The notes: a model not told the origin generated them from the letters alone. Shown: positions 4,653 to 13,739, counted from the stretch's first letter. The stretch: 64,000 nucleotides of DNA from Clostridia bacterium (GCA_017538255.1 JAFYJD010000025.1:131573-195572); one strand, 5' to 3'. Translations and numbers: made by a program.

Positions 4653-4783
4653 AAAGGTCGTTGAAGCGCCTCAAAGCTATGCTTCCTGCTCATTATCCGT
4701 TGTTCCTGCATAGAGTTTTTTAAAATGCCCCGAAAAGCATACGCCGGTTTCATTTTTCAGGCAAATATGCATAACAGAAAATA

Positions 4784-4830
4784 AAGATCTCTCCTGCCTT
4801 GCACGGCACGAGAGATCTTGTTCTTTGAAT
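4784..4830. terminator. bidirectional intrinsic terminator between convergent genes
   Basis: 10-bp stem aagatctctc/gagagatctt (4784-4793 / 4810-4819), flanked by an A-run on the left and a T-rich run on the right. Confidence 0.6.
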
Positions 4831-4892
4831 TGTTTACAAGCCGAACGCGTTACCCGAGAAAGCAATCGGCTTCGGCGTTTTAAGCGCGAACT

Positions 4893-5573
4893 TTACGCCA
4901 CGATATCGCCCTTATGAGTGATCAGCGTTACATCGCCTACGCCATCATACTTTGAGAGTTTCTCGATAAATCTTGTATTCCTGTTCTTTAAGCGAACCTC
5001 CGCCGTGAGTTCAACTACGCCTTCGCGCGCGACCTTGCTCTTGACCTTATAATTGCCTATATGGCCAAGCAGCGAATCGACAGCCTCACGTCCGCGTTCG
5101 TCATAGTGAACGATAAGCAAGTAGGATTCATTGCCATTGCGGCGAACAAGGTTCAGAATGACCATAGCCGCACCGATGATCACAGCGGCAATTATGGCCT
5201 CAAGATAGTACGCAGTTCCGACGGCTATACCCTCGCCGACGGCCCAGAACATATACACGGTATCAAGAGGATCCTTGACCGCAGTTCTGAAACGGATTAT
5301 CGACAGCGCGCCGACCATACCGAGGCTCAAGGTAAGGTTATTGTTAATAAGCATCAACATAAGCGCTGTAACGACGCAGAGTATTACATAACTGATATTG
5401 AGGTTCCTCGAATACAGCACGCCCGAAAACGTCAGCCTGTATATGAAGAATACGAAGAGACCTACCGCCAGCCCGAGAGCAAGCGTTACCAGGAGTTTTG
5501 AAAACTCGATCTGCATAGAGAAAACATCTCCGAAGCTTGTAGCAGCACCTAAAACATTGTTCATTTGATTCAC
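4893..5573 (-). CDS. DUF4956-like integral membrane protein
   Basis: 226 aa with several TM helices and the segment GALSIIRFRTAVKDPLDTVYMFWAV that I associate with DUF4956. GAGGTG RBS. Last gene of the CotH/VTC cassette. Confidence 0.7.
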   Translation of the reverse strand: MNQMNNVLGAATSFGDVFSMQIEFSKLLVTLALGLAVGLFVFFIYRLTFSGVLYSRNLNISYVILCVVTALMLMLINNNLTLSLGMVGALSIIRFRTAVKDPLDTVYMFWAVGEGIAVGTAYYLEAIIAAVIIGAAMVILNLVRRNGNESYLLIVHYDERGREAVDSLLGHIGNYKVKSKVAREGVVELTAEVRLKNRNTRFIEKLSKYDGVGDVTLITHKGDIVA

Positions 5574-5625
5574 CTCATAATAATATTCTTATTTTTTGGC
5601 GCAAGCGCCGTATTTGATTCGTTGA

Positions 5626-6327
5626 TCACATTTCAAATTGGCGGCAAAGCACATACTTGCTGACCGCCGAACGAACGGGAGCGTCCGCCTGAACTATCGA
5701 CGCGATAAAGTCCGGAAGCACTTCGTCGAACTTAACCTCAAGTACTACGATGCCCGACGGAAGCACCGGGTATGTCGGAAGATCGGGGTCAAAAATATCC
5801 GTCATCCTGTATGCGGATCGAATATCCTTGTCGAACGTTACGCGGACGTTGCCGTACGGGAATACATACGGTTCACGCATATAATCCACCAGTACGCGAG
5901 GACGCATAGGCTCGAGTTTGAACTTAAGTTGCAGCTGCCGCGCGAACGCCTCGTCCCTTTCCGCCAAGAAGCCATAATCGCCTTTAATCATACGGCGGCA
6001 CTCGTCCGGCGAAATAGATATGCTGTCCTTCTTGATGTAGCTGCCTTCCTTGTGCTTACACTCAAGTTTTATCACACCGTCGTCAAGGTTATAGATCCTT
6101 ATCCTGTGTTTATCCCTAAAATCCACACCGCTCATCTTATCTCGGAACGCGGAATCCTCCAAGTCGTCAAAGTAAAGACTTCGTATAAAATACTCACCTT
6201 TTGGACCGGCGTTCTTATCCCTCGACATCAACGCTCCGATGCGCTTTGATATTACCCGATAATCCGCATAGTTCAGATAGTATTTAAGCTCGTGCCTATA
6301 TCCCAGAGGCTGGTTTTTAATCTGCAC
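5626..6327 (-). CDS. VTC-domain (polyphosphate-polymerase-like triphosphate-tunnel) protein
   Basis: YRHELKYYL near the N-terminus, then IRSLYFDD, RIRIY and LEVKF beta-strand motifs typical of VTC/CYTH tunnel folds. I prefer GTG 6327 (GGAGG 9 nt upstream) to the track start at 6333. It overlaps the CotH stop by 11 nt. Confidence 0.7.
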   Translation of the reverse strand: MQIKNQPLGYRHELKYYLNYADYRVISKRIGALMSRDKNAGPKGEYFIRSLYFDDLEDSAFRDKMSGVDFRDKHRIRIYNLDDGVIKLECKHKEGSYIKKDSISISPDECRRMIKGDYGFLAERDEAFARQLQLKFKLEPMRPRVLVDYMREPYVFPYGNVRVTFDKDIRSAYRMTDIFDPDLPTYPVLPSGIVVLEVKFDEVLPDFIASIVQADAPVRSAVSKYVLCRQFEM

Positions 6328-9300
6328 CGCCAAAAACCTCCTTCATATATTCATTGCTCAAACCGAACATTGTCTTGATGCTCTTGCGCATCTCTGCCGG
6401 ACGCATCTCGGCATATGTGCGGATCTTTTTGATATTGCGCTCAAATCTGTCATACGTTGCATAGTTTATCGGATCAACGTAATTGAAATACGGTGAGTCC
6501 TCCGAATTGAACAGACTTCGTTCACGGGCTATCTCCGGACTGACTTGTTCGTAGAGTTCGTCTATGCATTTCAGAACGTGCTGCGTTTCAAAAACAGTAT
6601 TCATCAGATAACCGAATCGCCTAAGAAACGCATCACGCCAATCGCTTCTTTTAAGAAGTTTATTGAAAAGCGTCGACATCGGTCGTTCATTCTCGCGGCG
6701 GGCCGAGAGCGTACTATGCTCGTAACTGTTCCAGCCCCAACAGAAATCGTAATAAATGAAGCGCCATTTGCCGTTATCGCCGCATCTGTACATCTGGATA
6801 TTCCAATAATCCGTATTGCCTACGTATATCTCGCAGATCATATAATCCATAAAGGAATCGAGGTCGATGCGGTCGGCTACGTATTTATAATTCTCCTCTT
6901 TTGTAAGATCAATGGTTTCGATATAATCAAGGAGCGTAGTCCACTCCTTTGGCGAGCCGTAACTGGCTCGCGATCTGCCCTTAACAAGGATCATATCCGA
7001 CGGATCGTCCCAGTCCTCATGGAATGCAACGAAGAAACGGTTGCGTTTTTCCCTCATAAAATAGACGCCCCAATACTTTCCGTTAAGGTAAAGCACGTAG
7101 GTCTTGTAATCCTGATAGAGAAATCTGACGTCGGAGTCCTTAAGTACGGCAACGGAGAGTTCGTCCCTTATCTTGCCGTTGGCTTGATCCTGCGCGCCGC
7201 ACCTTAAAACTAGGGACTTATAACTGTCGGTGTCCTGATCCTCAAAGAAAGCGTAGTTCATACGATCCTTGCCGTATTCGTCCCGCGCCATCACGGCAAA
7301 CCCCTTTTGTTCCCTTCCCCTGCCGTATGAGCCGGATATGCTGATGCCTATATTCTGCTCGAATACGCACTGACCGTCATCATTGAAAACTTCAAACGAT
7401 GCAGGCCTTTCCCAATCCTGCCAAAACTGAGCGGTTTTCCAGTACGGCCACGAATCCTCTTCCGAACTCCATTGGTCGCCGTAGGCATATATGCCTGTTT
7501 TGCTGCTCCAAAGATTGTCCGGCGCCGTTACAAGAGATATCACAGGCAGCGTGTGGTCTACTTGATCCGCAGAAAGCAGATAAGTTCCTGTTTTTGACGA
7601 AAAACCGTTGAAGTAGCCTTCGCGGTATGTAACGGCACGGATGACTGTATTCTTGTTGACCTCAATGGGGCCCGAATACTGCGCGGAACCTCTGCCTGGC
7701 TCGGTGCAATCCGTTGTATAATAGATGACTTCGCCGGGCTCGCACGAAAGTTCTACGGTCATAGGCGCATCATAAATACCCGGATTCACGCTGAATACAG
7801 GTACCGAAGTGCTTCCGCGGAAAGCGGCTTCCGTATCGTTCGCTTCATTGGGTGTTGCCTTTGTGTAGAGCATTACCTCGCCCGAACTTGAACGACCGAG
7901 GGTCATCCCCGGAAAAAAAGCGGGGCTTTTGATCTTATCTATGCAGCTGCCGTTTGAATTAAAGAGATAAACCGTTTCACCCGAAGAGGATATGTTGAAT
8001 CCTGTTATCAGTTGAGGGTCTGTTATCCCCATAGATTTTTCGCTGTCAAGCGCAAGCACACAGAGATACTGACCCGCATCGATAACGGTTCCTTCGGGAA
8101 ACGTGAATTCGCCCGGATTTCCCGGTGATAAACTCAAGCCGCATCCCGAAAGATCGAACGGCTCGTTATTTGCATTATAAAGTTCGATATAATCCGGATA
8201 GAATGCTTTTTGATTATCCGGCGTAAGTTGTATCCCGCAATCGCCTGTACCGGCGATCTCGGATATGAATATTCCCTCCGGCGGCACATATGCGGTAACG
8301 AACGCTTCATAACCGTCCTGTGTATTGGGATAACCCGGCGTCGGCTTGTCTGTCTTTTCAAACTCGCCCGTACCGTCGGGTACTCTTTGGAACGACTCGT
8401 CATGTCCGGCACGGCTGTATTCCATACTGTCTATCAGATTTCCGTCCCGATCAGAGATCAATATGCTCTCGCCATATGCCGCAAGTCCAAACGCAGCGTG
8501 GAAAACGGTTTTTCCGGAGTTTGGATCGATCGTACTCTCCTGTGGTACGGGAACATAACCTCCGTCCTCCCCTTCCGTACCGGCCGATACGCAGAATACT
8601 ATAACATAATCGTGCGCCCCGATCTTAGCTCCTTCCGGGAAGGCGTATTTTTGCGGTTTTGATGGATTGTCGGACAGGGTTATGCCGGACAGATCCACCT
8701 CGGCGTCGCTCAAATTATAGATTTCGACCCAATCCGGGAAACTGCCCGATCCGTCGTCAAGAACGGTTCTGTTGGATGGCATAACTTCGTTTATCGCAAG
8801 CACGCCTTTAAACTTTGAAACCGCATTCGGCTGACCCGGGGCATTCTGCGCCGCGGCCTTGTATGCCGCGATACCGGCTTCATTATTCGGAAAGCCAGGC
8901 GATGGCTCAAGTTCGTCCCAAGAATCGTTGATGAGGGCAAGCGATCTGCCCGGGATCGTTTCGCGCAGTTCTATGCTGTCTTTAACATCACCCGAAGGCT
9001 TATAGAGTATTACCTCGTCGAATGCGGAGAGGCGGAATCCTGTATGCATATTGCCGATGCTTGTATCGCCCGAGCACCAAATCACAAGGTATCCGTCTGG
9101 CTCGAGTTCAACACCTGCCGGTATCGCATATTTTACACCTTTTTGCAGGCTGTCGCTCAACCCCCAGCCGGTTAAATTGACCCTGCTGTTTCCCGCGTTA
9201 TGAAGTTCGATAAAGTCATATGTTCCGCCGTCCGGCGCGACGACCTCACCGCTGTTTTTGAGAAGCACTTCGCTGATGACTATATCCATAGTCGACGCGC

Positions 9301-9388
9301 CGCCGCCCTTTGAGGCAATGACCGCCACTATAATAATTATTAAAATAACAAGTATTGCCGCCACGGCGATCGTTACTGCTCTCTTCAT
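6317..9388 (-). CDS. membrane-anchored CotH-family kinase-like protein with three lamin-tail-domain repeats
   Basis: N-terminal TM helix. Three LTD-like modules (ISEV..FIELHN, INEV..WVEIYN, ISEI..YIELYN). A chitobiase/FN3-associated-like segment (IYYTTDCTEP). C-terminal CotH-like region (YVLYLNGKYWGVYFMREK ... YWNIQMYRC). Confidence 0.8.
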   Translation of the reverse strand: MKRAVTIAVAAILVILIIIIVAVIASKGGGASTMDIVISEVLLKNSGEVVAPDGGTYDFIELHNAGNSRVNLTGWGLSDSLQKGVKYAIPAGVELEPDGYLVIWCSGDTSIGNMHTGFRLSAFDEVILYKPSGDVKDSIELRETIPGRSLALINDSWDELEPSPGFPNNEAGIAAYKAAAQNAPGQPNAVSKFKGVLAINEVMPSNRTVLDDGSGSFPDWVEIYNLSDAEVDLSGITLSDNPSKPQKYAFPEGAKIGAHDYVIVFCVSAGTEGEDGGYVPVPQESTIDPNSGKTVFHAAFGLAAYGESILISDRDGNLIDSMEYSRAGHDESFQRVPDGTGEFEKTDKPTPGYPNTQDGYEAFVTAYVPPEGIFISEIAGTGDCGIQLTPDNQKAFYPDYIELYNANNEPFDLSGCGLSLSPGNPGEFTFPEGTVIDAGQYLCVLALDSEKSMGITDPQLITGFNISSSGETVYLFNSNGSCIDKIKSPAFFPGMTLGRSSSGEVMLYTKATPNEANDTEAAFRGSTSVPVFSVNPGIYDAPMTVELSCEPGEVIYYTTDCTEPGRGSAQYSGPIEVNKNTVIRAVTYREGYFNGFSSKTGTYLLSADQVDHTLPVISLVTAPDNLWSSKTGIYAYGDQWSSEEDSWPYWKTAQFWQDWERPASFEVFNDDGQCVFEQNIGISISGSYGRGREQKGFAVMARDEYGKDRMNYAFFEDQDTDSYKSLVLRCGAQDQANGKIRDELSVAVLKDSDVRFLYQDYKTYVLYLNGKYWGVYFMREKRNRFFVAFHEDWDDPSDMILVKGRSRASYGSPKEWTTLLDYIETIDLTKEENYKYVADRIDLDSFMDYMICEIYVGNTDYWNIQMYRCGDNGKWRFIYYDFCWGWNSYEHSTLSARRENERPMSTLFNKLLKRSDWRDAFLRRFGYLMNTVFETQHVLKCIDELYEQVSPEIARERSLFNSEDSPYFNYVDPINYATYDRFERNIKKIRTYAEMRPAEMRKSIKTMFGLSNEYMKEVFGGAD

Positions 9389-9435
9389 AATTAAAACCTC
9401 CGCGTATTACAACCATATTCAAATACACTTAGACT

Positions 9436-9464
9436 ATTTTATCATATTCGTCATAATTATGCAA
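9436..9464 (-). promoter_or_regulatory. sigma-A-type promoter for the CotH cassette
   Basis: The minus strand reads TTGCAT-17 nt-TAAAAT, about 45 nt upstream of ATG 9388. Confidence 0.5.
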
Positions 9465-9582: not shown

Positions 9583-9627
9583 CAAAAACGAAAACGCCGT
9601 TGCGAACGACATAAGTCCGCAACGGCG
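9583..9627 (-). terminator. intrinsic terminator after tRNA-Ala
   Basis: 11-bp stem acgccgttgcg/cgcaacggcgt followed by TTTTCGTTTTT on the minus strand. Confidence 0.7.
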
Positions 9628-9703
9628 TGGTGGAGCATAGCGGACTCGAACCGCTGACATCCACACTGCCAGTGTGGCACTCTACCAGCTGAGCTAATGC
9701 CCC
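9628..9703 (-). tRNA. tRNA-Ala (anticodon GGC), CCA encoded
   Basis: 76-nt cloverleaf folded by hand. The acceptor stem GGGGCAT/ATGCTCC has the G3:U70 Ala identity pair. The anticodon loop is CTGGCAG and the T-loop is TTCGAGT. Confidence 0.9.
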
Positions 9704-9715
9704 GAAACGCATTGT

Positions 9716-9743
9716 ATTATACAACATCGTTTCGAATTTGTAA
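9716..9743 (-). promoter_or_regulatory. sigma-A-type promoter for tRNA-Ala
   Basis: The minus strand reads TTACAA-16 nt-TATAAT. The -10 ends about 12 nt before the tRNA 5' end. Confidence 0.55.
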
Positions 9744-9771
9744 AGTGCTAATTTAATATATTGATCAAAAA

Positions 9772-10809
9772 TCAAGCATCGCGCGCTTTTGAAAAAACGC
9801 TCTTGGCCCTGACGTCGCCGTTTATGTCGCCGCATTTAACATCACAGCCCGCATTTACGTCGCCGCCTATGTCTGCGCAGCATATATCACGACCCGCACG
9901 TGCATCGCCACCTATGTCCTCACAGTTGATATTGCCGCCTGCCTGCACATCCCCCTCGACACCGGCGCAAGAAACATTGCCGCCCGCTCTGACATCGCCG
10001 CATATACCTTTACCATTGACATTGCCTCCCGCATTCACATCGCCCTCTATGCCGCCGTTTGCGCTGACGGACGCGCCTGATTTGACAGCGCCGGTGATTG
10101 CGCCGCAGTTAACCCCGGCATGAGCAACTACATCGCCCGATACATCGCCCTCGATCGCTGCGCTTCCGAACACCTCAACCTTTTTGATCTTGGAAGCGGG
10201 ATCGACCGCTATTTTAAGGGGCTCGCCGATCTCTTGCGCTTCGACGATCTGGTTTCCAATGCACCAAAACGCCCGTATCACGCCGTCGTTTGGAAGTTCG
10301 TTGAAGGTTATGCCGGCATAGGGGTTATGGACGCATTCATCATTTGAAGCGTCTGTTCTTTCGGAATGCGTATCGCTGCCGTTCCCTGATGCCGTGCTCC
10401 AAATGCCGCTATACGCTCTTTGCATATTCTCACTAATTGACGATGCGATTTGCTGCTCGATCTGTTTTTCTATCTCTCTTTCGATCTCTCTTTCGATCAT
10501 ATTATCAATATCTGTTTCGCAGTTGTGATCGACACCGCCATCTTCCATACCCGCTTCAGGCTCCGAACAGCGGTCGCGCATTTCTCCGAGCGCGGGTTCG
10601 GGATCCGTTTCCTTGTTCAGCAGATCGTCGAGCGTGATACCGAAAAAAGCAGCGATCTTCGGCAAAAGTTCGATATCCGGATAGGATGCCCCCGTTTCCC
10701 ATTTTGATACCGCCTGGGTTGTTACGCCAAAGGAATCCGCAAGTTGTTCCTGCGTGAAGCCGCATTGTTTGCGAAGCGATTTGAATCTTGATGCAAATCT
10801 TTCTTTCAT
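9772..10809 (-). CDS. XRE-family HTH protein with an acidic linker and a C-terminal bactofilin-like beta-helix repeat domain
   Basis: N-terminal HTH_3 signature (QEQLADSFGVTTQAVSKWETG). EREIEREIEKQIEQQI linker. C-terminal repeats GDVxAGGNVxCxxxx. Confidence 0.7.
   Translation of the reverse strand: MKERFASRFKSLRKQCGFTQEQLADSFGVTTQAVSKWETGASYPDIELLPKIAAFFGITLDDLLNKETDPEPALGEMRDRCSEPEAGMEDGGVDHNCETDIDNMIEREIEREIEKQIEQQIASSISENMQRAYSGIWSTASGNGSDTHSERTDASNDECVHNPYAGITFNELPNDGVIRAFWCIGNQIVEAQEIGEPLKIAVDPASKIKKVEVFGSAAIEGDVSGDVVAHAGVNCGAITGAVKSGASVSANGGIEGDVNAGGNVNGKGICGDVRAGGNVSCAGVEGDVQAGGNINCEDIGGDARAGRDICCADIGGDVNAGCDVKCGDINGDVRAKSVFSKARDA
9775..10044 (-). repeat. six tandem 45-nt (15-codon) coding repeats
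   Basis: Units: GDVNAGGNVNGKGIC / GDVRAGGNVSCAGVE / GDVQAGGNINCEDIG / GDARAGRDICCADIG / GDVNAGCDVKCGDIN / GDVRAKSVF... Confidence 0.8.
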
Positions 10810-10963: not shown

Positions 10964-12505
10964 TTAACATTGTATAGAGTCAAAAACCGAAAGCGCGGCG
11001 CAGAAGAGTCGGCTCTTTGCCTCATCCTTTGCGGTCTCGCCGCTGAGCGGCGCTTCCGACGCCGCTATGACTTCGACATCGCCTCCGTCGAAAGCCAAGC
11101 CGCAATCATCGCCCAAACAGCCCGCGATCACCTTTACGGCTTTTCCCTCGGCGACCGAGCGGGCTATGACCGCGCCTACCGCCTTTGCTCGGCTCGTGCC
11201 GTCAAACCTGCCCTCGCCCGTTATCACTATGTCGGAGCGCTTCAGTTTGGCATCGAAGCCGAGCGCATCGAGCACGAACTGTGCGCCGCCCGTCAGTTTC
11301 GCGCTGAACAGCGCGGCGAGCATCGCGCCGATGCCTCCCGCAGCGCCCATACCCGCGCCTTTGCAGAAGTCCCTTCCCATACGCGCATCGTAGAGGCGTT
11401 CAAGGTTTTTCATACCGTTTTCGAGTTCGATCAGTAAACCATCATCGATATGCTTCTGCGGACCGAATACCGCCGTCGCTCCGTTTTCTCCGGTCAACGG
11501 GTTGTCAACGTCGCACAGCACGGTGATCTCGATGCCTACGAGTTCGGGCACGGTCGAAGAAGTGTCTATCGACGCGATCCTTGCAAGGTTTTGGGGTATC
11601 GCCTCAAGTTCCATTCCGTTTTCGTCCAAAAACCGTACGCCGAGCGCTGAAGCCGCGCCGATGCCGCCGTCGTTCGTTGCCGATCCGCCAACGCCAAGAA
11701 GTATACGTTTTGCACCCGCCTTTGCCGCTGCGAGTATGAGTTCGCCCGTGCCCTTTGAAGTGATGCGCATCGGATCAAACGGCGGCTCAACGAGTGTCAA
11801 TCCCGAAACGCTCGCCATTTCGATCAGCGCGGTGTAATTATCAATAAAATAGTATTCGGCGTTTACTGTGCCTCCGAGCGGATCGCTTACATCACAAAAA
11901 CATTTGTACCCGTTCAGTCCCGAGGCAAGCGCACGGGCGGTGCCGTCGCCTCCGTCCGCCGTTGGCACGGAAAGCAGTTTATATCGGCCTTTAGAAACGC
12001 TTGCCGCCCGTTTTAACACCTCGATGACCTCGAACTGATCCAAGGTGCCCTTGAACTTATCGGGCGCGAGAAGCACGACGGGTTTCGGTGCGTAAGGCTC
12101 CGCGCCGTCGGTTTTTATTATGCACAACTTTTTTTCGCCGCCCGAAAGCATTCCCTTTTCATCGAACTCGCCGCAATCGTCAAGCCCTTCCAGTTTGGAA
12201 ACGGCGTTTGTTTGGATGATCGGACGATGCTCAGTCAGCATATCTGTGATATTCCTGCGGTTTTGAATCGCGTTATAAAACGCCCGAGTTTTCGAGAGTC
12301 CCTGACCCATAAATACGGCTGTTAGTATCTCTGCGGAATCGAATTCATCGATCTTGCAATGCCCGATATAGAGATGCATCCCTCCGAGCAGTTTTCCGTC
12401 TATATTTGAAAGGAGTTTAGATATGATTGCCGAAGCATCGTCGGCATAGTCGCGCACGTCTACGGGATCGAATCTCAAACCGAGCGCAAAACGGATCACT
12501 TCCAT
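10964..12505 (-). CDS. glycerate kinase with an N-terminal extension of about 140 aa
   Basis: The GlxK/GarK-type core starts at VVLLAPDKFKGTL, followed by ADGGDGT and LLGVGGSATNDGG. Start set at ATG 12505 (AGAGG RBS), 20 nt after the upstream stop. The track ORF extends to 12610. Confidence 0.8.
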   Translation of the reverse strand: MEVIRFALGLRFDPVDVRDYADDASAIISKLLSNIDGKLLGGMHLYIGHCKIDEFDSAEILTAVFMGQGLSKTRAFYNAIQNRRNITDMLTEHRPIIQTNAVSKLEGLDDCGEFDEKGMLSGGEKKLCIIKTDGAEPYAPKPVVLLAPDKFKGTLDQFEVIEVLKRAASVSKGRYKLLSVPTADGGDGTARALASGLNGYKCFCDVSDPLGGTVNAEYYFIDNYTALIEMASVSGLTLVEPPFDPMRITSKGTGELILAAAKAGAKRILLGVGGSATNDGGIGAASALGVRFLDENGMELEAIPQNLARIASIDTSSTVPELVGIEITVLCDVDNPLTGENGATAVFGPQKHIDDGLLIELENGMKNLERLYDARMGRDFCKGAGMGAAGGIGAMLAALFSAKLTGGAQFVLDALGFDAKLKRSDIVITGEGRFDGTSRAKAVGAVIARSVAEGKAVKVIAGCLGDDCGLAFDGGDVEVIAASEAPLSGETAKDEAKSRLFCAALSVFDSIQC

Positions 12506-12524
12506 GGTTTTACCTCTTGTTCGC

Positions 12525-13739
12525 TTATCGGCGCGCTTCGAGCGCTTCGCCGTCCGCAAGCCCCGATTGATAGCGTTTTTTCTTTTTGGCACCGCTTCGC
12601 ATATAAACATTCAGCACAAGCCCGACGGCGATCAGGTTTGTGAGCATATTCGAGCCGCCGTAACTGATGAACGGAAGCGGTATGCCCGTAACGGGCATCG
12701 CGCCCATCGTCATACCGATGTTTTCAAATATATGCGCCGCGAACATACCGACAACGCCGACTACGATGCATTTGCCGTAGTTGTCGCGTGCGCGCGAGGC
12801 GATATAGAGCCACCTGAAAAGCAGTATGAAGAAAACGAGTATCAGTACAGTTGCGCCTATAAATCCGACAGCCTCGGTTATTCCGCTGAATATGAAGTCC
12901 GTATGCCTTGCCGGAACATAACGAAGCTGCGCAAGCGTCGGTTCACCGAAGAAGCCCTTGCCGAAGAGTCTTCCCGAGCCAATGACCATTTTGGATTGAT
13001 TTACCTGATAACTCGCATTGCTGTCGACGTTTGCCGGATTTATGAATACATCGATCCTCTTGCGCTGTTCCTTGGTCAGGATGTACTGATACACGAGCGG
13101 GAGCCCGATCATGCAGAGCCCCGAAGCCGGGAGCACATAGTACCATTTAATGCCGGCGACGAAGAAGATCGAGACCATTATGACGATAAGAACTATGGCG
13201 GTGCCGTAATCGGGCTGAAGCACGATCAAAAGGAACGGCAGAGCGGTTATCGCAAGCGCGATGCCCACATCGGAAAAGCGTTTAAGGCACCCCTGCTCGT
13301 CCATCGCCTTTGATACATATTTGGAGAGCATCAGTATGAGCGCGATCTTGCAGAGTTCGCCCGGCTGGATCGCCCTTTCGATCGAATCGAATACGAACCA
13401 GCCCTGCGCGCCGCCGCGCACCTTGCCGAATACAAAAAGCATAAGCAAAAGCCCGATCACCGCACCGTAGCCCCATATGGTTATTGGCTTAAATATGCTG
13501 TAATCGAGGATCAGCACTATTACGAGCGCGGCAAAGCCCACAATGAAGTTGACCATATGCTTTTGCAAATATTCCATATTGAACTTTGACATATAGTCCG
13601 CAAGCCCCTTCTCCGAGCCGTCGAAAGGTTTTGCCATAACCGAAGCGAGCGCGACCGTGCCGAAAGCGATAAGCCCCAGCACGATCAGCACCGTCATCCA
13701 GTCTATCTTTTTAAAGTTGAAGCGTTCAAGAAAGTTCAT
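12525..13739 (-). CDS. FtsW/RodA/SpoVE-family (SEDS) peptidoglycan glycosyltransferase
   Basis: 404 aa, polytopic, with SEDS-like motifs LQPDYGTA, RHTDFIFS and PLPFISYGGS. Confidence 0.85.
   Translation of the reverse strand: MNFLERFNFKKIDWMTVLIVLGLIAFGTVALASVMAKPFDGSEKGLADYMSKFNMEYLQKHMVNFIVGFAALVIVLILDYSIFKPITIWGYGAVIGLLLMLFVFGKVRGGAQGWFVFDSIERAIQPGELCKIALILMLSKYVSKAMDEQGCLKRFSDVGIALAITALPFLLIVLQPDYGTAIVLIVIMVSIFFVAGIKWYYVLPASGLCMIGLPLVYQYILTKEQRKRIDVFINPANVDSNASYQVNQSKMVIGSGRLFGKGFFGEPTLAQLRYVPARHTDFIFSGITEAVGFIGATVLILVFFILLFRWLYIASRARDNYGKCIVVGVVGMFAAHIFENIGMTMGAMPVTGIPLPFISYGGSNMLTNLIAVGLVLNVYMRSGAKKKKRYQSGLADGEALEARR

What the first reader, a model, noticed from the sequence alone, without database searches (positions are those of the whole stretch)
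4893..9388. Translationally coupled CotH kinase-like / VTC tunnel-domain / DUF4956 membrane cassette
Three co-directional genes share one promoter-like element (9436-9464) and one terminator (4784-4830).
- A 1023-aa membrane-anchored, apparently extracytoplasmic protein with three lamin-tail domains and a C-terminal CotH domain.
- A VTC-like triphosphate-tunnel protein whose GTG overlaps the CotH stop by 11 nt.
- A polytopic DUF4956-like protein.

CotH proteins are atypical protein kinases. The VTC domain is the catalytic polyphosphate-polymerase tunnel of eukaryotic Vtc4, which works with a membrane channel.

Hypothesis (inference only): the VTC and DUF4956 pair makes and exports a polyphosphate-type phosphodonor or polymer used by the surface-exposed CotH/LTD protein. 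I know of no experimentally defined function for this trio.
Basis: partly seen in the sequence, partly recalled or inferred. Interest (0 to 1): 0.6.

Follow-up and report, generated by a model that had tools for sequence, protein, structure and literature searches.

The report
Exported CotH kinase with VTC-DUF4956 pair
A small gut-type Clostridia genome carries a self-contained three-gene operon, already noticed in other bacteria but never explained, that joins an outward-facing kinase-like surface protein to a yeast-type polyphosphate-polymerase-like enzyme and its membrane partner.

Summary
Three minus-strand genes lie between a sigma-70-like promoter and a strong terminator. They encode a 1023-aa membrane-anchored LTDx3/CotH protein, a 233-aa VTC protein whose GTG overlaps the CotH stop by 11 nt, and a 223-aa DUF4956 protein.

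CotH keeps both catalytic aspartates. VTC keeps the Vtc4 tunnel residues, and its model is closest to Vtc4. DUF4956 has an MgtC-like build.

In 301 genomes of the phylum, VTC and DUF4956 co-occur strictly and lie adjacent. CotH lies within 5 kb at 32 of 53 loci. Every linked CotH is exported, and leaderless spore-type CotH genomes lack the pair. A Cthe_2159 beta-helix protein is an alternative partner.

The trio is already in print (PMC7112168, PMC12345266), and this scan has noted it in at least 692 genomes. Print says it is not found outside pel loci. Here it stands alone in a genome where no PelG, PPK1 or PPK2 was found.

Polyphosphate supply to the outside kinase remains inference. The published VTC knockout gave no phenotype.

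The parts
9436..9464 (-). Promoter-like element: TTGCAT (-35), 17-nt spacer, TG-n-TAAAAT (extended -10)
   Evidence: Read. One search lists an overlapping 9/12 site at 9470-9441. This is a consensus match only; such sites are not enriched over shuffles.
6317..9388 (-). Gene for a 1023-aa membrane-anchored LTDx3 / CHB_HEX_C / CotH protein. GGAGG at 9401-9397 lies 8 nt before the ATG.
9314..9370 (-). N-terminal hydrophobic anchor or signal segment (aa 7-25), preceded by K2 and R3. It places the rest of the protein outside the membrane.
   Evidence: 19-residue Kyte-Doolittle mean 3.65; the only such segment in the protein
7844..9289 (-). Three lamin-tail-domain repeats, about aa 34-166, 197-354 and 372-515. 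Each starts with an (I/L)x(I/V)(S/N)E(V/I) motif; the first two end in a P(S/T)PG(F/Y)PN motif.
   Evidence: LTD, 3 stretches, best stretch aa 32-140. Repeat borders were read from the sequence and the paralogue alignment.
7616..7786 (-). CHB_HEX_C_1 / Fn3_assoc beta-sandwich module (aa 535-591)
6395..7345 (-). CotH kinase-fold domain (aa 682-998). Catalytic Asp D860 (nt 6809-6811) corresponds to B. subtilis D228. Metal-binding Asp D881 (nt 6746-6748) corresponds to D251.
   Evidence: Mutant data for D228/D251 come from PMC7821199.
5626..6327 (-). Gene for a 233-aa soluble VTC (Vtc4-like triphosphate-tunnel) protein. The GTG start overlaps the CotH stop by 11 nt; GGAGG at 6341-6337.
4893..5564 (-). 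Gene for a 223-aa DUF4956 protein: five predicted membrane helices plus an MgtC-like (ACT-like) C-terminal domain. GAGG at 5576-5573.
4776..4819 (-). Intrinsic terminator: interrupted 14-bp hairpin (4784-4819) followed by UAUUUUCU
   Evidence: -25.8 kcal/mol, z = -5.9, 0 of 200 shuffles fold as well

Best explanation
This is a self-contained operon for an envelope phosphoryl-transfer module built around an obligate VTC-DUF4956 pair.

Shown here:
- The three genes form one transcription unit.
- The CotH protein is anchored by one N-terminal helix, its LTD, beta-sandwich and kinase-fold domains lie outside the membrane, and both catalytic aspartates are intact.
- The VTC protein is a soluble Vtc4-like tunnel enzyme with the Vtc4 tunnel residues in place.
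- DUF4956 is an MgtC-like membrane protein whose invariant RFRTAVKD turn and ACT-like domain are predicted to face the cytoplasm.
- VTC and DUF4956 always occur together, in equal copy number and side by side.
- Exported CotH proteins (or, alternatively, exported Cthe_2159 beta-helix proteins) accompany them.

Inferred:
- VTC docks on DUF4956 at the inner face of the membrane and polymerises phosphate from ATP.
- The chain, or its phosphoryl groups, reaches the outer face through or alongside DUF4956.
- The exported CotH proteins use it as a phosphodonor or ligand to modify a surface protein or glycan where ATP is scarce. These are the operon's own protein and the orphan paralogue on contig 15.
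For: Pairing of VTC and DUF4956:
- All 45 VTC genomes in a 301-genome phylum sample (30 families) have DUF4956, and copy numbers match.
- 49 of 53 VTC loci have DUF4956 within 353 nt on the same strand.

Linkage to CotH:
- CotH lies within 5 kb at 32 of 53 loci, in at least five gene orders, always co-directional. Linkage survives reshuffling.
- Three relatives with 52-57% identical VTC keep the order LTD-CotH, VTC (4-nt overlap), DUF4956 while the flanking genes differ.

Export correlates with the pair:
- All 38 VTC-linked CotH ORFs have an N-terminal hydrophobic segment (scores 2.0-3.8).
- Six short spore-type CotH have none (0.2-1.0).
- 34 of 36 genomes with a verified exported CotH hold VTC and DUF4956. 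The four genomes whose only CotH is leaderless hold neither. A donor-supply model predicts this pattern.

Catalytic residues and fold:
- VTC: R13/K17, R77/R79 and E91/K93 align with Vtc4 R196/K200, R264/R266 and E279/K281 (numbering checked against PMC9911596).
- VTC fold: the 13 best PDB matches are all Vtc4/Vtc2/Vtc3 tunnels (E = 3e-11), ahead of other tunnel enzymes at about 1e-6.
- CotH: D860 and D881 match the residues whose mutation inactivates B. subtilis CotH.

Genome context:
- No PPK1 or PPK2 was found in this 96%-complete genome. VTC is therefore its only recognisable candidate polyphosphate synthase.
Against: - No bacterial VTC-family protein has been assayed.
- No pore has been shown for DUF4956. 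Its only structural relative, MgtC, is a regulator, not a channel (PMC12345266).
- No CotH-fold or Fam20-fold kinase is known to use polyphosphate.
- In S. intermedius, deleting DUF4956 or CotH halved aggregation in sputum medium and shifted Pel levels in opposite directions, while deleting VTC had no reported effect. A linear VTC to DUF4956 to CotH chain does not predict this.
- The bacterial VTC keeps a Glu (E15) in the first strand where Vtc4 has Thr. That is closer to hydrolytic CYTH enzymes.
- Correspondence of E199/K201 and S225/K226 to Vtc4 E426 and K458 could not be shown by sequence.
- The co-occurrence counts come from related genomes and overstate independence.
Confidence: 0.3

Rival explanations
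1. Polyphosphate is made but stays inside the cell. DUF4956 only tethers or regulates VTC at the membrane, in MgtC style, sensing a ligand through its ACT-like domain. The pair tunes phosphate or energy status, or envelope synthesis. The exported CotH protein is merely co-expressed and uses scarce extracellular ATP, or acts as a binding protein.
For: - The DUF4956 C-terminal domain is most similar to the MgtC C-terminal domain.
- MgtC acts by protein-protein regulation of ATP synthase and PhoR (cited in PMC12345266).
- The VTC knockout has no phenotype where the CotH knockout has one.
- OmpR/histidine-kinase pairs sit beside many VTC-DUF4956 loci.
Against: - It does not explain why exported CotH genomes nearly always carry the pair (34 of 36) while leaderless CotH genomes do not.
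- It does not explain why linkage to an exported partner survives five gene orders.
- VTC also occurs together with PPK1 (16 of 45 genomes), so it is not simply the cell's bulk polyphosphate synthase.
Confidence: 0.25
2. The VTC protein is not a polymerase. It is a tunnel-family hydrolase or cyclase acting on triphosphate or a nucleotide. Together with DUF4956 it forms a signalling or regulatory unit that controls the activity or secretion of the surface proteins.
For: - The tunnel fold is shared with triphosphatases and class IV cyclases (ranks 14-50).
- The invariant first-strand motif RHELK keeps one Glu of the CYTH ExExK signature.
- Some homologues also score for Pfam CYTH.
Against: - Sequence and fold are clearly closer to Vtc4/Vtc2/Vtc3 than to any hydrolytic tunnel enzyme (E = 3e-11 against 1e-6). 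Only Vtc proteins are found by profile.
- The Vtc4 residues whose mutation inactivates the enzyme (R264, R266) are invariant here.
Confidence: 0.15
3. The three genes are neighbours by descent or chance and have no functional coupling.
For: Flanking genes are unrelated housekeeping genes. No direct interaction data exist.
Against: - VTC and DUF4956 co-occur strictly, at 45 of 45 genomes.
- Adjacency is kept through five gene orders across 30 families.
- The CotH-VTC overlap is conserved in relatives.
- All three families ring in the same three distant control genomes, one of them an archaeon.
Confidence: 0.03

Closest known systems
cotH / polyphosphate-polymerase (VTC) / DUF4956 accessory genes of Gram-positive pel loci (Whitfield et al. 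2020, PMC7112168; S. intermedius SIR_1594/1593/1592, mBio 2025, PMC12345266)
   Same: The same three families are contiguous and co-directional. CotH is secreted or anchored, VTC is cytoplasmic, and DUF4956 is MgtC-like with an ACT-like C-terminus.
   Different: - There is no pel operon. No PelG was found in this 96%-complete genome, and 38 of 45 VTC genomes in the phylum sample have none. The mBio paper reports failing to find the trio outside pel loci.
- The CotH protein here is about 1000 aa with three lamin-tail domains and a CHB_HEX_C module, rather than CotH plus FN3.
- No DUF4832 hydrolase gene was seen among the ORFs flanking the operon.
Eukaryotic VTC complex (yeast Vtc4/Vtc3 or Vtc2/Vtc1; PDB 3G3Q, 7YTJ, 8I6V)
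   Same: The tunnel domain is closest in sequence and fold to Vtc4, with K200, R264, R266 and K281 equivalents conserved. A membrane partner is always encoded next to it. That fits synthesis coupled to a membrane step.
   Different: - There is no SPX sensor domain.
- The tunnel protein has no membrane segment of its own.
- The partner is an MgtC-like five-helix protein, not a Vtc1/DUF202 three-helix subunit. No DUF202 was found in the genome.
- The target compartment would be the cell exterior, not a vacuole.
- Polymerase activity is untested.
Bacillus spore-coat kinase CotH (PDB 5JD9/5JDA)
   Same: The CotH fold and both catalytic aspartates are shared.
   Different: Bacillus CotH is about 360 aa and leaderless. 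By established knowledge it acts in the mother cell, where ATP is available. In the sample, genomes whose only CotH is of this type lack VTC and DUF4956. The window's protein is exported and multidomain.
MgtC/SapB family (Salmonella and Mycobacterium MgtC; PDB 2LQJ, 7QA5)
   Same: An N-terminal block of five helices precedes an ACT-like C-terminal domain. The best fold match of the C-domain is MgtC.
   Different: The Pfam MgtC score is below cut-off (19.1 against 31.4). The invariant GALSIIRFRTAVKDPxDT...FWAVGEGIAxG motif is specific to DUF4956. DUF4956 is strictly paired with VTC.

Membership tests
[quoted passage not shown] | Profile match over the curated cut-off | tested here: met
   123.3 bits against 23.8, covering 320 of 322 profile positions. 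A profile that includes this domain finds 5JD9 at E = 3e-110.
[quoted passage not shown] | Catalytic Asp (B. subtilis D228) and metal-binding Asp (D251), 23 residues apart in Bacillus | tested here: met
   D860 (GNTDY) and D881 (YYDF) fall in the two invariant Asp columns of 22 aligned CotH domains. These columns match B. cereus chain residues D224 and D247. Mutant data are in PMC7821199.
[quoted passage not shown] | ATP-dependent protein kinase activity | not testable with these tools
   Needs an enzyme assay. Adenine-pocket residues could not be checked because Nguyen et al. 2016 is not held.
Vtc4-type polyphosphate polymerase / eukaryotic VTC complex | Triphosphate-tunnel fold closest to Vtc4 | tested here: met
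   The model has pLDDT 87. The top 13 PDB matches are Vtc4/Vtc2/Vtc3, with E down to 3e-11 and TM up to 0.68.
Vtc4-type polyphosphate polymerase / eukaryotic VTC complex | Tunnel residues K200, R264, R266, K281 | tested here: met
   K17, R77, R79 and K93 are invariant in 19 homologues and align to these positions. The numbering offset was checked against PMC9911596.
Vtc4-type polyphosphate polymerase / eukaryotic VTC complex | Catalytic Glu E426 and the C-terminal Ser-Lys (K458) | tested here: inconclusive
   E199/K201 and S225/K226 are invariant, but neither HMM alignment reaches them. The correspondence rests on strand pattern and recall.
Vtc4-type polyphosphate polymerase / eukaryotic VTC complex | SPX domain and a Vtc1/DUF202-type membrane domain or subunit | tested here: not met
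   The protein is a single 233-aa VTC domain with no hydrophobic segment. No DUF202 was found in the genome.
Vtc4-type polyphosphate polymerase / eukaryotic VTC complex | Synthesis of polyphosphate from ATP coupled to membrane transit | not testable with these tools
   Needs biochemistry.
DUF4956 (PF16316) / MgtC-like membrane proteins | Profile match over the cut-off | tested here: met
   DUF4956 scores 37.6 bits against 30.6. MgtC itself scores only 19.1 against 31.4, so membership of PF02308 is not met.
DUF4956 (PF16316) / MgtC-like membrane proteins | Multi-helix membrane block plus ACT-like cytoplasmic C-domain | tested here: met
   The model shows helices at 21-45, 53-72, 77-97, 99-116 and 120-142, then a beta-alpha-beta-beta-alpha-beta domain at 145-216. 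Its best match is the MgtC C-domain 2LQJ, E = 1e-3, TMt = 0.61. The model is only moderate (pLDDT 72) and was built on a database protein that differs by one residue.
pel-associated cotH/VTC/DUF4956 accessory set | Three genes contiguous and co-directional | tested here: met
pel-associated cotH/VTC/DUF4956 accessory set | Contiguous with pelDEADAFG | tested here: not met
   No PelG was found in the genome. Flanking genes are tRNA-Ala, an HTH protein, glycerate kinase, a metallo-beta-lactamase-fold protein and RsgA.

The most novel reading that the evidence does not exclude
Bacteria and archaea have a VTC-type polyphosphate polymerase. Docked on an MgtC-like membrane protein, it passes polyphosphate or its phosphoryl groups across the cytoplasmic membrane. 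That would energise ATP-independent phosphorylation by exported CotH kinases, and would load exported Cthe_2159 beta-helix proteins. It would be a general way of doing phosphoryl chemistry outside the cell.
Probability: 0.15. Interest if true: 0.85.

Novelty: new member of a known kind. Interest (0 to 1): 0.45.

Why it matters
Exported kinases pose a problem in bacteria because there is little ATP outside the membrane. A cytoplasmic Vtc4-like enzyme strictly paired with a membrane protein, and nearly always present where CotH is exported, gives a concrete and testable answer.

It would also be the first bacterial use of the eukaryotic-type polyphosphate polymerase, which reviews still treat as eukaryotic (PMC10657179).

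This instance is a clean test case for four reasons:
- It is a minimal stand-alone operon.
- No pel genes were found in the genome.
- No PPK1 or PPK2 was found in the genome.
- The genome carries two exported CotH proteins and one Cthe_2159 protein.

The survey also corrects a published statement that the trio is confined to pel loci. It adds Cthe_2159 beta-helix proteins as a second class of partner.

Tried and rejected
- Single-sequence searches of the VTC and CotH proteins against PDB sequences found nothing. Profiles were needed.
- A profile of the VTC C-terminal third alone did not reach Vtc4. The E426 and K458 equivalents therefore stay unproven.
- NCBIfam gave no family for any of the three proteins.
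- Nguyen et al. 2016 (the CotH structure paper) is not held. ATP-pocket residues could not be compared between exported and spore-type CotH.
- Rfam found no riboswitch or leader element, only the tRNA.
- The 61-nt VTC/DUF4956 spacer shows no significant structure.
- No VTC-DUF4956 or VTC-CotH fusion appeared among the sampled loci. The largest open frames were 312 and 360 aa.
- I tested whether VTC replaces PPK1. PPK1 occurs in 16 of 45 VTC genomes against 36 of 256 others, so the two are neither exclusive nor dependent.
- Hitch-hiking and a pel-only role were both rejected on the synteny data.
Full report
**Anatomy**

The minus strand of 4776-9464 carries three ORFs.

- The first (6317-9388, 1023 aa) has one strongly hydrophobic segment at aa 7-25, preceded by K2 and R3, and no other. 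Everything after it should lie outside the membrane. Pfam finds three lamin-tail domains, a CHB_HEX_C_1/Fn3_assoc module (aa 535-591) and a full-length CotH domain (aa 682-998, 123 bits).
- The second ORF matches Pfam VTC (123.6 bits). Its likely GTG start at 6327 lies 9 nt after GGAGG and overlaps the CotH stop by 11 nt. A database gene call of 233 aa starts there.
- The third matches DUF4956 (37.6 bits against a cut-off of 30.6). It most likely starts at ATG 5564 (223 aa), 61 nt after the VTC stop, so that junction is not overlapped.

Signals and flanks:

- Upstream, a tRNA-Ala(GGC) at 9628-9703 has its own 11/12 promoter and a terminator.
- The operon's promoter-like element is TTGCAT-17-TGnTAAAAT at 9464-9436.
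- Downstream, a hairpin at 4784-4819 (-25.8 kcal/mol, z = -5.9) with a U-run ends the unit.
- The flanking genes are unrelated: a metallo-beta-lactamase-fold lipoprotein, RsgA, an HTH protein and glycerate kinase.

**The three proteins**

*CotH.* I aligned 22 CotH domains from this genome and the survey. The invariant columns include the two aspartates that correspond to B. cereus chain residues D224 and D247. These are B. subtilis D228 and D251, whose mutation inactivates the kinase (PMC7821199). In the window protein they are D860 and D881. E780, D734 and N858 are also in conserved columns. By these criteria the domain is catalytically competent.

*VTC.*

- A 19-sequence profile finds only yeast Vtc4 and Vtc2 in the PDB (E = 1e-6).
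- R13/K17, R77/R79, E91/K93, Y151/R153 and R164 align with Vtc4 R196/K200, R264/R266, E279/K281, Y359/R361 and R373. The chain numbering is offset by 3. I checked this against the R264A/R266A/E426N inactive mutant of PMC9911596.
- The AlphaFold model (pLDDT 87) matches Vtc4/Vtc2/Vtc3 tunnels first (13 top hits, E down to 3e-11). Other tunnel enzymes follow at about 1e-6.
- The E426 and K458 equivalents (E199/K201, S225/K226, all invariant) could not be confirmed by sequence.
- One difference: the first strand reads RHELK, keeping a Glu where Vtc4 has Thr.

*DUF4956.*

- The model (pLDDT 72) was built on a database protein that differs from the window's by one residue. It shows five helices and a beta-alpha-beta-beta-alpha-beta domain.
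- The best fold match of that domain is the MgtC C-terminal domain (2LQJ, 7QA5).
- Twenty homologues share an invariant GALSIIRFRTAVKDPxDT...FWAVGEGIAxG block spanning helices 3-4.
- If the basic C-terminal domain is inside, the RFRTAVKD turn falls on the cytoplasmic face. This placement is inference.

**Distribution**

I searched the same 301 genomes of the phylum with each family.

VTC and DUF4956:

- VTC is in 45 genomes from 30 families, and DUF4956 is in those same 45. One further sub-threshold DUF4956 hit lies outside them.
- Copy numbers are equal in each genome.
- 49 of 53 VTC loci have DUF4956 within 353 nt on the same strand. The remaining four loci include contig-end cases.

CotH:

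- It lies within 5 kb of VTC at 32 of 53 loci. This is a lower bound, because several loci are cut by contig ends.
- It appears in at least five gene orders, always co-directional and tightly packed.
- Three relatives with 52-57% identical VTC keep this window's order, with a 4-nt CotH/VTC overlap and a roughly 1000-aa LTD-CotH protein, while the flanks differ.
- All 38 VTC-linked CotH ORFs have an N-terminal hydrophobic segment (15-residue score 2.0-3.8). Six short, roughly 360-aa spore-type CotH have none (0.2-1.0).
- Of 36 genomes with a verified exported CotH, 34 hold VTC and DUF4956. The four genomes whose only CotH is leaderless hold neither.
- These genomes are related to one another, so the counts overstate independence.

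Other observations:

- All three families also ring in the same three distant control genomes: Bacteroides thetaiotaomicron, Corynebacterium glutamicum and Methanosarcina acetivorans.
- Of ten VTC-DUF4956 loci without CotH, six carry a Cthe_2159 (PF14262) beta-helix protein adjacent to the pair (downstream in five, upstream in one). OmpR-type regulator and histidine-kinase genes were confirmed or suggested beside several of these loci.
- Genome-wide, 18 of 19 genomes with a strong Cthe_2159 match are VTC-positive. Six of the nine VTC-positive, CotH-negative genomes have one.

**This genome**

The genome is 1.76 Mb and 96% complete. It holds the following:

- One VTC and one DUF4956.
- Two CotH genes. 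The second is on contig 15 beside trkA/trkH. It is 27% identical, with the same anchor-LTDx3-CHB_HEX_C-CotH build and intact aspartates.
- One exported Cthe_2159 homologue with a signal peptide and a C-terminal anchor.
- A Ppx/GppA gene.

No PelG, PPK1, PPK2 or DUF202 was found.

**What is already known**

- Whitfield et al. 2020 (PMC7112168) listed cotH, a polyphosphate polymerase and DUF4956 as accessory genes of Gram-positive pel loci.
- The C. perfringens NELoc-2 table shows two adjacent pairs of a VTC gene and a 222-226-aa membrane-protein gene, followed by cotH (PMC2879425).
- The S. intermedius study (preprint; mBio 2025, PMC12345266) modelled the three proteins much as above.
- That study found that deleting DUF4956 or CotH halved aggregation in sputum medium, with more and less Pel respectively. 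Deleting VTC had no reported effect.
- It also reported failing to find the trio outside pel loci.

My survey contradicts that last point:

- PelG is strong in only 11 of 301 genomes.
- Six trio loci are pel-adjacent.
- 38 of 45 VTC genomes, including this one, show no PelG.

This scan has also noted the trio about 895 times in at least 692 genomes.

**Mechanism**

Shown here:

- The operon structure.
- The topology of the CotH protein.
- Intact catalytic residues in CotH and VTC.
- The obligate VTC-DUF4956 pairing.
- The association of that pair with exported partner proteins.

Inferred:

- VTC makes polyphosphate at the membrane on DUF4956.
- The product reaches the outside.
- CotH uses it.

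The link between exported CotH and the pair is what a donor-supply model predicts. The knockout asymmetry, the regulator-like relatives of DUF4956 and the lack of any polyphosphate-using CotH-fold kinase weigh against it. I put the full chain at about 0.3 as the best single explanation, and the strongest form (a general extracytoplasmic phosphorylation system) at 0.15. The rivals are internal polyphosphate with MgtC-style regulation (0.25), a non-polymerase tunnel enzyme in signalling (0.15) and no coupling (0.03).

**Verdict**

- This is a real, well-delimited instance of a described but unexplained gene trio.
- It is a new member of a known kind. It has an unusual LTDx3 ectodomain and stands alone in a genome where no pel, PPK1 or PPK2 genes were found.
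- Interest is moderate (0.45). The open question is good and directly testable. This window adds context rather than a new principle.

Noticed in passing
G000 contig 15 (L005:7090-10119, + strand): A second, orphan CotH paralogue of 1009 aa, 27% identical, with the same build (anchor, LTDx3, CHB_HEX_C, CotH) and intact catalytic aspartates. It sits beside trkA/trkH, far from the only VTC-DUF4956 pair. Several other genomes also have more exported CotH genes than VTC pairs.
   Followed up: partly
G000 contig 24 (L093:147-1853, + strand); also L083-L085, L090-L092: Cthe_2159 (PF14262) beta-helix proteins look like an alternative exported partner of VTC-DUF4956. One lies next to the pair in 6 of 10 CotH-less loci. 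18 of 19 genomes with a strong match are VTC-positive. The window's own genome has one, with a signal peptide and a C-terminal membrane anchor, at a separate locus.
   Followed up: partly
L083:7484-9435, L086:4392-5963 and similar: An OmpR-type response regulator and a histidine kinase flank the VTC-DUF4956 pair at L083, and a histidine kinase lies upstream of the pair at L086. ORFs of similar size and position occur at other CotH-less loci but were not scanned. None is next to the window's operon.
   Followed up: no
whole genome G000: No PPK1 (PF02503) or PPK2 (PF03976) was found in a 96%-complete genome that does have a Ppx/GppA gene (contig 12). The VTC protein is the only recognisable candidate polyphosphate synthase.
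   Followed up: partly
window 9594-9744 (- strand): A stand-alone tRNA-Ala(GGC) gene at 9628-9703, with an 11/12 sigma-70-like promoter (9744-9716) and a 14-bp terminator hairpin (9628-9594), lies directly upstream of the operon.
   Followed up: yes
window 9772-10809 (- strand): A 345-aa protein with an N-terminal Cro/C1-type HTH domain. Its C-terminal half is made of degenerate G-D-V/A-x-A-G-G-N-V/I repeats (bactofilin-like in look) with no Pfam match.
   Followed up: no
window 10964-12610 (- strand): In the longest glycerate kinase ORF the Gly_kinase domain starts only at residue 179. Either there is a 178-aa N-terminal extension or the true start is internal.
   Followed up: no
L026:8477-10210, L029:8437-10179: In two of three relatives an ABC exporter-type gene (ABC_membrane + ABC_tran, about 580 aa) follows DUF4956 on the same strand. 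It is absent from the window, where the terminator follows directly.
   Followed up: no
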